Shown: positions 5,181 to 5,664 of the stretch, piece after piece
How positions within the stretch are numbered: position 1 is the stretch's first letter
Layout: each line of letters starts with the position of its first letter
DNA from: a virus
Taxonomy: Duplodnaviria > Heunggongvirae > Uroviricota > Caudoviricetes
Virus record (IMG/VR): IMGVR_UViG_2537561934_000011
Strand: one strand, 5' to 3'
Length of the DNA stretch: 13,699 nucleotides
Translations under genes and position numbers: made by a program
Notes under the pieces: generated by a model
The model's database searches: none
What the model was told of the DNA's origin: nothing
The model's input: only the letters and a program-made list of their open reading frames with translations

Positions 5181-5664
5181 ATGGCAAACACTGCTGAGAT
5201 ATTCAATTTTCCTGTGCCGGATGTGGCACAAAAGGAGCGGCGCGTGGCAGATCTCGATGATGGTTATACGCGCATTGCAAATGAGTTGCTGGAAGCTGTG
5301 ATGCTGGCCGGATTAACACAGCACCAGCTTCTGGTCTTTCTGGCTGTCATGCGCAAAACATATGGCTTTAATAAAAAACTGGATTGGGTTAGCAACGAGC
5401 AACTTTCCGAATTAACCGGGATATTGCCGCACAAGTGTTCTGCTGCAAAAAGTGTTCTGGTAAAGCGTGGGATTTTTATTCAGAGCGGGCGGAATATCGG
5501 CATCAATAATGTGGTCAGTGAATGGTCAACATTACCCGAATCGGGTAAGAAAAATAAAGTTTACCTGAAAGAGGTAAATTTACCTGAATCAGGTAAGAAA
5601 AGTTTACCTAAATCAGGTAAAGGCGTTTACCCGAATCAGGTAAACACAAAAGACAAACTAACAA
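5181..5664 (+). pseudogene. Lambda O-like replication initiator, N-terminal portion, 3'-truncated by IS1
   Basis: MANTAEIFNFP .. RVADLDDGYTRIANELLEA .. LAVMRKTYGFNK .. SNEQLSELT parallels the lambda O N-terminal domain. SD GGGAGG 5 nt upstream of the ATG at 5181. The reading frame runs straight into the IS1 end at 5665. Confidence 0.8.
5532..5643. repeat. Five 17-bp palindromic iterons (TTACC-N7-GGTAA) inside the O-like gene: probable lambdoid origin of replication
   Basis: Copies at 5532-5548, 5561-5577, 5580-5596, 5604-5620 and 5627-5643, each with inverted-repeat symmetry. They encode the LPESGKK-type peptide repeats of the O-like protein. In lambda, ori iterons lie within O. Confidence 0.6.

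What the first reader, a model, noticed from the sequence alone, without database searches (positions are those of the whole stretch)
5532..5643. Iteron array of the replication origin embedded in the O-like gene and clipped by IS1
Five TTACC-N7-GGTAA palindromes lie inside the O-like coding region and encode its LPESGKK-type repeats, the lambda arrangement in which O binds iterons within its own gene. IS1 begins about 20 bp after the last iteron, where the AT-rich unwinding region should follow. The origin and the initiator C-terminal domain are both destroyed, so the element cannot replicate autonomously.
Basis: partly seen in the sequence, partly recalled or inferred. Interest (0 to 1): 0.45.

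Follow-up and report, generated by a model that had tools for sequence, protein, structure and literature searches.

The report
Dead prophage replication origin, IS1-cut
This is the initiator-binding repeat array of a lambda-type phage replication origin, sitting inside a half-deleted initiator gene of a decayed E. coli prophage. It is an ordinary, textbook arrangement, with the side observation that IS1 hits this kind of origin again and again.

Summary
Five exact TTACC-N7-GGTAA palindromes lie at 5532-5643, against 0.25 expected by chance. They sit immediately after the Phage_rep_O DNA-binding domain of a truncated O-like gene (5181-5669).

- Viable phages such as 4A7 carry the same five repeats in an intact O gene, followed by an AT-rich tract and a lambda-like C-terminal domain, then gene P.
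- Lambda, P22, HK97 and mEp043 carry four dyad-symmetric repeats of their own sequence at the homologous place. Their spacing is 20/24/23 bp; here it is 19/24/23 plus one extra upstream copy. phi80 and Gifsy-2 also carry their own repeats there.
- The repeats are read in two different reading frames and are conserved at synonymous sites, so the constraint acts on DNA.

IS1 (5665-6432) starts 21 bp after the last repeat, inside the AT-rich tract, and has no target duplication. The O C-terminal domain, P, cI, the start of cro and, by inference, pR are absent from the window. The binding array is intact, but the origin cannot fire.

This O/iteron type occurs in 2297 of 5426 complete E. coli genomes, so it is ordinary.

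Side finding: six independent IS1 junctions fall within lambdoid origins. One is at exactly the same nucleotide as here, in the opposite orientation.

The parts
5181..5669 (+). Truncated O-like replication initiator gene. It encodes 161 native residues, then Arg and a stop codon supplied by the IS1 end (ACA AGG TAA). An upstream in-frame ATG at 5091 is used in some annotations.
   Evidence: Translation. Pfam Phage_rep_O, E = 2e-34, covering the full profile 1-95 at residues 21-115. 98.8% identical to residues 1-162 of the 310-aa O of phage 4A7. N-terminal domain 49.6% identical to lambda O and 58.5% to P22 gp18.
5532..5548 (.). Iteron 1 (TTACCCGAATCGGGTAA). An extra, distal copy 29 bp upstream of the next one; read as LPESGK.
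   Evidence: In Klebsiella phage homologues this copy is degenerate (GGTAC half-site).
5561..5577 (.). Iteron 2 (TTACCTGAAAGAGGTAA); read in a different frame as VYLKEVN.
5580..5596 (.). Iteron 3 (TTACCTGAATCAGGTAA); read as LPESGK.
   Evidence: One variable position among five E. coli/Klebsiella sequences.
5604..5620 (.). Iteron 4 (TTACCTAAATCAGGTAA); read as LPKSGK.
5627..5643 (.). Iteron 5 (TTACCCGAATCAGGTAA), proximal to the AT-rich tract; read as VYPNQVN.
5644..5664 (.). Surviving 21 bp of the AT-rich (unwinding) tract, ACACAAAAGACAAACTAACAA, 29% G+C. The last 9 bp (5656-5664, AACTAACAA) are an IS1 target used independently in another strain.
   Evidence: intact tract in 4A7...ACAAAAGACAAACTAACAAAAGACAATATAAAACCTTTTT. 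(strain AH21C062: same site, with a 9-bp duplication AACTAACAA).
5665..6432 (+). IS1 copy 1 (768 bp) at a deletion junction. It has no target-site duplication (left AACTAACAA, right AACAATTCT).
   Evidence: Annotated as an IS1 family transposase with programmed frameshift in the identical locus L002. Right flank unrelated to phage 4A7; it contains a DNA-invertase remnant.
5100..5206 (-). Candidate pO promoter plus oop-like antisense RNA with terminator, between the cII-like gene and O'.
   Evidence: Promoter-like site on the minus strand, TTGAAT-17-CATAAT with TG, whose -10 overlaps the O start codon as in lambda (the lambda comparison is from my own knowledge). Hairpin plus U-run, z = -3.9. 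phi80 annotates an oop homologue (M3 RNA) at the equivalent place. No Rfam match. Not shown to be expressed.
4555..5094 (+). cII-like gene (YdaT domain) immediately upstream of O'.
   Evidence: Pfam YdaT_toxin, E = 3e-29. 97% identical to the CII-like activator of 4A7.
4342..4458 (+). C-terminal fragment of a cro-like gene fused to a truncated bet gene. It marks a second deletion that removed cI and the start of cro. The intervening oR/pR region is lost by inference.
   Evidence: tblastn matches only cro residues 31-68; cI gives no match. Pseudogene annotations in L002.
5515..5536 (-). Pseudo IS1 end (GGTAATGTTGACCATTCACTGA on the minus strand), 17 of 22 identical to the IS1 left inverted repeat and overlapping iteron 1.
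   Evidence: (pair I3). Only 2 of 200 shuffles give such a match anywhere in the window.

Best explanation
The five palindromes are the iterons, meaning the initiator-binding sites, of a lambda-type theta replication origin located inside the initiator gene itself.

In an intact phage of this type the following would happen. This mechanism is inferred by analogy with oriλ and was not tested here. Dimers of the O-like protein bind the dyad-symmetric 17-19-bp sites through the N-terminal Phage_rep_O domain. The bound array wraps into an O-some and destabilises the adjacent AT-rich tract. The O C-terminal domain then recruits the helicase loader P with DnaB.

In this window only the left half of that machine remains: the N-terminal domain coding region, all five iterons and 21 bp of the AT-rich tract. 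An IS1 element sits at a hot-spot target (AACTAACAA) inside the AT-rich tract. An IS1-associated deletion then removed everything from there to a DNA-invertase remnant near the right prophage end. A separate deletion removed cI and the start of cro, and by inference the pR region between them.

What remains is an 11.5-kb e14-like prophage remnant integrated at icd. Its origin can probably still be bound by a cognate O protein, but it cannot be unwound or loaded with helicase, so the element cannot replicate on its own.
For: Shown directly:
- Five exact palindromes, far above chance, beginning two codons after the end of the Phage_rep_O domain.
- The same five repeats occur in intact O genes of viable phages. 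There they are followed by an AT-rich tract (25-30% G+C), a lambda-like C-terminal domain and gene P.
- Homologous O genes of lambda, P22, HK97 and mEp043 each carry four dyad repeats of their own sequence at the same position, with spacing 20/24/23 bp. Here iterons 2-5 are spaced 19/24/23. phi80 and Gifsy-2 also carry arrays there, and the phi80 record annotates them as gp15 binding sites.
- The repeat is read in two frames.
- Third-codon-position identity to a Klebsiella phage homologue is 82% (36/44) in the iteron plus AT segment, against 56% (66/117) in the N-terminal domain; Fisher p = 0.003.
- In Klebsiella phages the N-terminal domain, iterons and start of the AT-rich tract are conserved. 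Everything after the tract is unrelated and is paired with a different loader, so the module boundary lies exactly where an origin-specificity module should end.
- The O C-terminal domain, P, ren and cI give no tblastn match in the window, and cro survives only as a fragment.
- IS1 copy 1 lacks a target duplication and its right flank is unrelated DNA.
- Strain AH21C062 shows the presumed ancestral state: a simple IS1 insertion at the same nucleotide, with the 9-bp duplication AACTAACAA and the rest of O and P present.

From the literature:
- oriλ consists of four 18-bp iterons plus a 38-bp AT-rich tract in the middle of O (PMC3349717, PMC7466680).
- The AT-rich tract is needed for unwinding but not for O binding (PMC7466680).
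- P22 gene 18 carries four of its own ~20-bp repeats (PMC8022706).
Against: - No binding experiment exists for this iteron type, and none of the six iteron sequences searched appears in the searchable literature.
- Iteron 1 is 29 bp from the next copy and is degenerate in the Klebsiella relatives, so it may not be a functional site.
- The elevated synonymous-site conservation could partly reflect recent recombination at a mosaic boundary rather than selection on binding sites.
- 'Cannot replicate' is inferred from missing parts, not tested. The window cannot show whether a cognate O and P are supplied in trans by another prophage in the same genome.
Confidence: 0.9

Rival explanations
1. The remnant is kept as a replication-directed exclusion (decoy) module. 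The intact iterons, the oop-like antisense RNA and possibly the truncated DNA-binding O' protein would titrate or poison the initiator of superinfecting phages that share this origin specificity.
For: - The parts that survive match those reported as sufficient for the lambda 'inhibition phenotype': oop with its promoter plus iterons, with the AT-rich tract dispensable (PMC3349717, read).
- Ectopic oriλ copies arrest lambda replication (PMC4488673).
- A pO-like promoter and an oop-like terminator hairpin are present.
- The O' ORF retains the complete Pfam DNA-binding domain.
- This origin type is very common (2297 of 5426 genomes), so cognate phages are frequently met.
Against: - The published effects were obtained with multicopy plasmids; here there is a single chromosomal copy.
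- cI and the start of cro are deleted, so pR is presumably gone and there is no evident promoter for O'.
- The 192-194 genomes with this junction are 100% identical over 2.9 kb and probably one clone, so persistence is not evidence of selection.
- Other lineages lose the iterons instead, as expected for neutral decay.
Confidence: 0.06
2. The repeats are a protein-level feature, a repetitive LPESGKK-type linker peptide, with no role as DNA sites.
For: Three of the five copies do encode LP(E/K)SGK. The region lies between two protein domains, where low-complexity linkers are common.
Against: - Two copies are read in a different frame and give an unrelated peptide.
- Each copy is a DNA palindrome, which has no meaning at the protein level.
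- Synonymous positions are unusually conserved.
- Relatives with quite different repeat sequences keep the same DNA spacing.
Confidence: 0.02
3. The origin is still usable in trans. When a co-resident or infecting phage of the same specificity supplies O and P, the five iterons plus the residual 21-bp AT tract and the moderately AT-rich IS1 end could fire. This would cause local chromosomal over-replication.
For: - All iterons are intact.
- Two iterons plus the AT-rich tract are the minimal unwinding unit in lambda (PMC7466680).
- 21 bp at 29% G+C remain.
- The same O type is common in E. coli.
Against: - More than half of the AT-rich tract, including the second ACAAAAGACAA motif conserved in P22, HK97 and 4A7, is replaced by IS1 sequence at 43% G+C.
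- Rightward transcription from pR, which activates oriλ, is presumably lost, because cI and the start of cro are deleted.
Confidence: 0.04
4. The palindromes are related to IS1 activity, for example relics of IS1 ends or transposase sites, because the IS1 termini (GGTAA...TTACC) equal the repeat half-sites.
For: The terminal pentamers are identical. A 22-nt pseudo IS1 end (17 of 22 matches) overlaps iteron 1.
Against: - The repeats are present, with the same spacing, in phages that carry no IS1.
- They have counterparts of different sequence in every O-family gene examined.
- The resemblance may at most help to attract IS1.
Confidence: 0.01

Closest known systems
oriλ and the O initiator of bacteriophage lambda
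   Same: The origin lies in the middle of the initiator gene. It begins with tandem dyad-symmetric 17-19-bp iterons directly after the N-terminal DNA-binding domain (49.6% identical). Both have the 5+7+5 half-site geometry and 20/24/23-bp spacing, followed by an AT-rich tract carrying an ACAAAAGACA motif. In the intact relative 4A7 there is a near-identical C-terminal domain and a P gene.
   Different: The iteron sequence is TTACC-N7-GGTAA rather than TCCCT-N7-AGGGA. There are five copies rather than four. In the window the right half (AT tract, C-terminal domain, P) and, by inference, pR are gone.
P22 ori within gene 18 (and the HK97 O gene)
   Same: This is the closest N-terminal domain outside the type itself (58.5% identity). 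It has four iterons with the same spacing. P22 half-sites are the same (TTTACC / GGTAAA). Both have a tandem ACAAAAGACAAT motif in the AT-rich tract, as in 4A7.
   Different: The P22 half-sites are 2 bp closer together (N5 rather than N7). The C-terminal domain pairs with a DnaB-type helicase (gene 12) rather than a lambda-P-type loader.
Origins of Stx phages (933W, P27), with six iterons
   Same: Extra iterons lie distal to the AT-rich tract in addition to the core four. The distal ones are more weakly bound or less conserved (PMC7466680). Here iteron 1 is offset and degenerate in relatives.
   Different: Stx phages have lambda-type iteron sequences and intact, functional origins.
phi80 ori and gp15
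   Same: O-family initiator (40% identity) with annotated gp15 binding sites at the homologous place. It also has a YdaT-type 180-aa cII-like gene and an oop homologue (M3 RNA) upstream.
   Different: Different iteron sequence (TTCCCGAAAACGGGAA type) and 21-bp spacing.
e14-type defective prophage at icd
   Same: Integrated at icd with an icd' duplication. It has a lambdoid int-xis left end and a DNA-invertase remnant plus a restriction-type cargo at the right end. That phage 21 and e14 use this attachment site is from my own knowledge.
   Different: The cargo is an McrB-like AAA ATPase plus McrC rather than mcrA. The early region is 4A7-like (97-99% identical).
IS1 insertion and IS1-associated deletion
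   Same: 768 bp, ~30-bp inverted repeats, insA/insB with frameshift, and 8-9-bp target duplication on simple insertion (PMC12428005). Copy 2 (8881-9648) shows the 9-bp duplication ATTGAAGAG.
   Different: Copy 1 has no duplication, as expected at a deletion or recombination junction.

Membership tests
Lambdoid (oriλ-type) replication origin inside the initiator gene | Array of four or more ~18-19-bp dyad-symmetric iterons located within the initiator gene, directly downstream of the region encoding its N-terminal DNA-binding domain | tested here: met
   Five exact TTACC-N7-GGTAA copies at 5532-5643. The Pfam domain ends at codon 115 and iteron 1 starts at codon 118.
Lambdoid (oriλ-type) replication origin inside the initiator gene | Iteron spacing conserved with characterised members (start-to-start about 20, 24, 23 bp) | tested here: met
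   Iterons 2-5 are spaced 19/24/23. Lambda, P22, HK97 and mEp043 are spaced 20/24/23.
Lambdoid (oriλ-type) replication origin inside the initiator gene | AT-rich unwinding tract of about 40 bp immediately after the last iteron | tested here: not met
   The tract is present in the intact homologue 4A7 (25-30% G+C). In the window only its first 21 bp (5644-5664) remain before IS1.
Lambdoid (oriλ-type) replication origin inside the initiator gene | Iteron sequence travels with the N-terminal domain as a specificity module, separately from the C-terminal/loader module | tested here: met
   Klebsiella phages keep the N-terminal domain, iterons and AT start but have unrelated C-terminal domains and DnaC-type loaders. 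Each more distant N-terminal domain has its own iteron sequence.
Lambdoid (oriλ-type) replication origin inside the initiator gene | The initiator protein binds the iterons | not testable with these tools
   Needs EMSA or footprinting. No solved structure of a relative was found by sequence.
Lambdoid (oriλ-type) replication origin inside the initiator gene | Rightward transcription from pR through or near the origin (transcriptional activation) | tested here: not met
   cI is absent and only cro residues 31-68 remain, fused to a truncated bet. Loss of pR itself is inferred from this. No sigma-70-like rightward promoter was found in 4000-5664, upstream of O'.
Phage O-family initiator (Pfam Phage_rep_O N-terminal domain plus loader-binding C-terminal domain) | Complete N-terminal Phage_rep_O domain | tested here: met
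   E = 2e-34, profile positions 1-95 of 95.
Phage O-family initiator (Pfam Phage_rep_O N-terminal domain plus loader-binding C-terminal domain) | C-terminal domain that recruits the helicase loader, with the loader gene immediately downstream | tested here: not met
   Residues 163-310 of 4A7 O, and P, give no tblastn match anywhere in the window.
IS1 | 768-bp element with terminal inverted repeats GGTAATG.../...CATTACC and insA/insB reading frames | tested here: met
   5665-6432. ORFs 5720-5995 (91 aa) and 5914-6417 (167 aa). RefSeq annotation of the identical locus. Definition from PMC12428005.
IS1 | 8-9-bp target-site duplication flanking a simple insertion | tested here: not met
   For copy 1 the left flank is AACTAACAA and the right flank AACAATTCT, so this is a deletion or recombination junction. 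The feature is met for copy 2 (ATTGAAGAG) and for the AH21C062 insertion at the same ori site (AACTAACAA).

The most novel reading that the evidence does not exclude
The surviving half-origin is not just debris. The five intact iterons, an oop-like antisense RNA and an O' protein reduced to its DNA-binding domain together form a single-copy decoy. It would protect the host against the very common phages that share this origin specificity.

A linked reading is that lambdoid origins are site-specific IS1 hot spots. IS1 would then be a recurrent agent that converts inducible prophages into such immobile, possibly protective, remnants.
Probability: 0.07. Interest if true: 0.55.

Novelty: new member of a known kind. 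Interest (0 to 1): 0.2.

Why it matters
By itself it matters little. It is a correctly recognised, textbook lambdoid origin in a decayed prophage, and its O/iteron type is present in about 42% of complete E. coli genomes.

It gives a defined iteron consensus, (T)TTACC-N7-GGTAA(A), for a very common but apparently uncharacterised origin specificity. It also provides a natural comparison with P22, which has the same half-sites 2 bp closer together. That comparison could be used to study how O-family dimers read half-site spacing.

The side observation has modest practical interest. IS1 repeatedly lands in the AT-rich tract or iteron spacer of lambdoid origins, once at the identical nucleotide in opposite orientation. 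This suggests a recurrent route by which prophages lose autonomous replication and become fixed in the chromosome.

Tried and rejected
- I aligned the DNA to the right of IS1 (6400-7440) with the recombinase region of phage 4A7, to test for a small internal deletion. There was no homology. The right flank is instead an e14-like invertase remnant, so the deletion is large.
- A PDB sequence search with O' gave nothing significant.
- An Rfam scan of 3800-7600 gave only one sub-threshold chance hit, rliD at E = 0.045 against a gathering score of 50 bits, and no oop family match.
- A literature search for six iteron sequences found no paper.
- I considered whether the repeats could be IS1-derived because of the shared GGTAA/TTACC termini. 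I rejected this because IS1-free phages carry them.
- I considered the peptide-repeat explanation and rejected it on the two-frame reading.
- I did not run the large protein-database searches or structure prediction. The Pfam match and the 50-58% identity to lambda O and P22 gp18 already settle the family.
- Some fetched loci were slow to appear in the scripting sandbox. This only delayed the BLAST comparison.

Full report
**1. The observation**

A search for TTACCNNNNNNNGGTAA, allowing one mismatch, returns exactly five matches in the window. All are mismatch-free and lie at 5532, 5561, 5580, 5604 and 5627. Chance expectation is 0.25, and no shuffle out of 200 reached five. With one more base on each side, each copy is a 19-bp dyad with 7-8 of 9 complementary pairs. 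The start-to-start spacing is 29, 19, 24 and 23 bp.

The copies lie in the ORF 5091/5181-5669. Homology to lambda O (MTNTAKILNF, recalled from my own knowledge, against MANTAEIFNF here) and a GGGAGGAA ribosome-binding site point to 5181 as the real start. The product matches Pfam Phage_rep_O over the whole profile (E = 2e-34, residues 21-115). The first repeat therefore starts two codons after the DNA-binding domain ends.

IS1 occupies 5665-6432: 768 bp, termini GGTAATG...CATTACC, and ORFs of 91 and 167 aa. That places it 21 bp beyond the last repeat. The stop codon of the truncated gene comes from the IS1 end (ACA AGG TAA).

**2. Where the window comes from**

The window is 99.97-100% identical to the chromosome of E. 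coli WCHEC020031 and many other strains. It covers a prophage remnant integrated at icd. In order, the remnant carries:
- int, xis, and small genes;
- a DndB/DGQHR-type gene and exo;
- a truncated bet fused to the C-terminal fragment of a cro-like gene;
- a YdaT-type cII-like gene;
- the truncated O-like gene and IS1;
- a DNA-invertase pseudogene;
- an McrB-like AAA ATPase and McrC;
- the icd' duplication.

Without the second IS1 the remnant is about 11.5 kb. The functional relative, phage 4A7 (49 kb), uses the same icd site and is 97-99% identical over int-xis, exo-bet and cII-O'. Between 192 and 194 complete genomes carry the same O'-IS1 junction.

**3. Are the repeats origin iterons?**

Five lines of evidence say they are.

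(a) Intact homologues. Sixteen E. coli phage records match at 97-98% identity, and those examined contain the same five repeats inside a full-length O gene. In 4A7 the last repeat is followed by an AT-rich tract, AACACAAAAGACAAACTAACAAAAGACAATATAAAACCTTTTT. It has 25-30% G+C in 40-bp windows, against 48% for the gene. After it come a C-terminal domain nearly identical to that of lambda O, and gene P.

(b) Homologous position and geometry. The window's N-terminal domain is 58.5% identical to P22 gp18, 49.6% to lambda O, 46.6% to HK97 O and 40% to phi80 gp15. In lambda, P22, HK97 and mEp043, the stretch just after the domain holds four dyad repeats of a phage-specific sequence, with start-to-start spacing 20/24/23 bp. 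phi80 and Gifsy-2 have arrays at the same place with about 21-22-bp spacing. The phi80 record annotates its repeats as gp15 binding sites. The window's iterons 2-5 are spaced 19/24/23. Iteron 1 is an additional distal copy, which recalls the extra distal iterons of Stx phages (PMC7466680).

(c) Constraint on the DNA. Repeats 1, 3 and 4 start in codon phase 0 and encode LP(E/K)SGK. Repeats 2 and 5 start in phase 2 and encode VY(L/P)(K/N)(E/Q)VN. The conserved entity is therefore the DNA, not a peptide. Against Klebsiella phage ST11-VIM1phi8.2, third-codon positions are 56% identical (66/117) in the N-terminal domain and 82% (36/44) in the iteron plus AT segment, Fisher p = 0.003.

(d) Modularity. 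Three Klebsiella phages share the N-terminal domain (75-78% DNA identity), iterons 2-5 and the beginning of the AT-rich tract (88-91% identity over iterons 3-5). Immediately after the tract they become unrelated. Two of the three pair with an AAA/DnaC-type loader; the third is annotated as P-like. This is the classical lambdoid arrangement, in which origin specificity (N-terminal domain plus iterons) and loader specificity (C-terminal domain plus P) are separate exchangeable modules.

(e) Literature. oriλ consists of four 18-bp iterons and a 38-bp AT-rich tract in the middle of O. The tract is needed for unwinding but not for O binding (PMC3349717, PMC7466680). P22 gene 18 contains its own four ~20-bp repeats (PMC8022706).

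**4. What was destroyed**

tblastn with the 4A7 proteins finds O residues 1-162 and the cII-like protein. It finds nothing for O residues 163-310, P, Ren or cI, and only residues 31-68 of a cro-like protein. The IS1 left junction falls inside the second ACAAAAGACAA motif of the AT-rich tract. This motif is tandemly repeated in P22, HK97 and 4A7. The flanks of IS1 copy 1 (AACTAACAA and AACAATTCT) are not a duplication. The right flank is unrelated to the 4A7 sequence it was aligned against and contains an invertase remnant.

IS1 therefore marks a large deletion. It arose either by intramolecular transposition or by recombination between two IS1 copies. It removed the rest of O, P, the nin region, Q, and the lysis, head and tail genes.

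A second, IS-independent deletion fused bet' to cro'. It removed cI and the start of cro; loss of the pR region between them is inferred.

The conclusion that the element cannot replicate autonomously is an inference from four missing components: half of the unwinding tract, the loader-recruiting domain, the loader, and the activating promoter. It has not been demonstrated. The O-binding part of the origin is intact.

**5.

Three corrections apply. The array itself is not clipped, and the first 21 bp of the AT-rich tract survive. Only three of the five repeats encode the LPESGK-type peptide. IS1 sits at a deletion junction, not at a simple insertion.

**6. Things found on the way**

(i) IS1 hits lambdoid origins repeatedly.
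- In strain AH21C062, an IS1 in the opposite orientation is inserted at exactly the same nucleotide of the same O type. It has the 9-bp duplication AACTAACAA, and the rest of O and P are present. This is an independent event, and it also models the ancestor of the window's locus.
- In strain 165 and at least ten other strains, an IS1 junction lies in the A-rich spacer between iterons 1 and 2 (GGTAAGAAAAATA|IS1), with the right side deleted.
- In three prophages with lambda-type origins (ET245, SY3626, Res13-Lact-EB12-05), IS1 abuts the O C-terminal half. The junction falls at the start (two positions 2 bp apart) or at the end of the AT-rich tract. Each has a different left context, and the N-terminal half is deleted.

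That makes six independent junctions in segments of a few tens of base pairs. The known preference of IS1 for AT-rich targets (my own knowledge of the early Tn9/IS1 target studies) is the simplest explanation.

(ii) The IS1 termini (GGTAA/TTACC) equal the iteron half-sites. In addition, 5515-5536 is a 17-of-22 match to the IS1 inverted repeat; 2 of 200 shuffles reach this anywhere in the window. Whether this helps attract IS1 is unknown.

(iii) A pO-like promoter whose -10 overlaps the O start codon, followed by a strong hairpin with a U-run, suggests an oop-like antisense RNA of about 70 nt at roughly 5171-5100 on the minus strand. Rfam does not recognise it. The parts that survive here, oop plus iterons without the AT tract, are those reported as sufficient on a multicopy plasmid for replication-directed exclusion of rep-lambda phages (PMC3349717; see also PMC4488673). 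This underlies the low-probability decoy reading.

(iv) P22 iterons have the same half-sites as this type but 2 bp closer together (TTTACC-N5-GGTAAA against TTTACC-N7-GGTAAA), although the N-terminal domains are 58% identical.

(v) A second IS1 (8881-9648, minus strand) is only 91% identical to the first. It splits the McrB-like gene with a clean 9-bp duplication, ATTGAAGAG, and is absent from WCHEC020031.

**7. Novelty and score**

The architecture is textbook, and the O/iteron type is present in 2297 of 5426 complete E. coli genomes. I found no paper quoting any of the six iteron sequences searched. I therefore file it as a new, uncharacterised-specificity member of a known kind rather than as something new in kind. 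A specialist would not be surprised by it. The recurrent IS1 targeting of origins and the P22 spacing difference are small but usable leads. Interest 0.2.

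Noticed in passing
window 5656-5664; L016 1757-1765 and 2535-2543 (E. coli AH21C062): The 9-bp site AACTAACAA in the origin's AT-rich tract was hit by IS1 twice independently. In the window the IS1 left end is adjacent and there is no duplication. In AH21C062 an IS1 sits in the opposite orientation with a clean 9-bp duplication, and the rest of O and P are intact.
   Followed up: yes
L013 ~1900 (ET245), L015 ~1600 (SY3626), L014 ~1900 (Res13-Lact-EB12-05), L017 ~1958 (strain 165): Four further independent IS1 junctions lie inside lambdoid origins. Three are in the AT-rich tract of lambda-type O genes with the N-terminal half deleted. 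One is in the A-rich spacer between iterons 1 and 2 of the window's O type with the right side deleted. Origins look like IS1 hot spots.
   Followed up: partly
window 5515-5536 (minus strand) and IS1 ends 5665-5669 / 6428-6432: The IS1 terminal pentamers GGTAA/TTACC are identical to the iteron half-sites. A 22-nt stretch overlapping iteron 1 matches the IS1 left inverted repeat at 17 of 22 positions; 2 of 200 shuffles give such a match anywhere in the window.
   Followed up: partly
window ~5100-5206, minus strand: A pO-like promoter (TTGAAT-17-CATAAT, with the -10 overlapping the O start codon) and a strong hairpin plus U-run (z = -3.9) suggest an oop-like antisense RNA of about 70 nt between the cII-like gene and O'. 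There is no Rfam match.
   Followed up: partly
L007 1252-1338 (P22 gene 18) versus window 5560-5645: P22 iterons use the same half-sites (TTTACC/GGTAAA) with a 5-bp rather than a 7-bp centre, while the array spacing (20/24/23) and the AT-rich ACAAAAGACAAT tandem motif are conserved. The N-terminal domains are 58% identical.
   Followed up: partly
window 8881-9648 (minus strand): A second IS1 copy, only 91% identical to the first, is inserted with the 9-bp duplication ATTGAAGAG into an McrB-like AAA ATPase gene. It splits the gene into 7432-8961 and 9703-10191. The gene is intact in WCHEC020031.
   Followed up: yes
window 4061-4485: A second, IS-free deletion fuses a truncated bet gene to the C-terminal fragment of a cro-like gene. 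It removes cI and the start of cro relative to phage 4A7. Loss of gam, kil and the rest of the immunity region between them is inferred. The surviving cro fragment is only 46% identical to 4A7 Cro, so the remnant was heteroimmune.
   Followed up: partly
window 2168-3232 (minus strand): A DndB/DGQHR-domain gene sits in the early-left region of the prophage, where 4A7 has small unrelated ORFs. It is possibly a defence or anti-defence cargo.
   Followed up: no
window 7432-11309 and 12006-12226: The right end of the remnant carries an McrB-like AAA_5 ATPase plus an McrC-family gene next to the icd' duplication. This parallels e14, which carries mcrA at the same chromosomal site.
   Followed up: no
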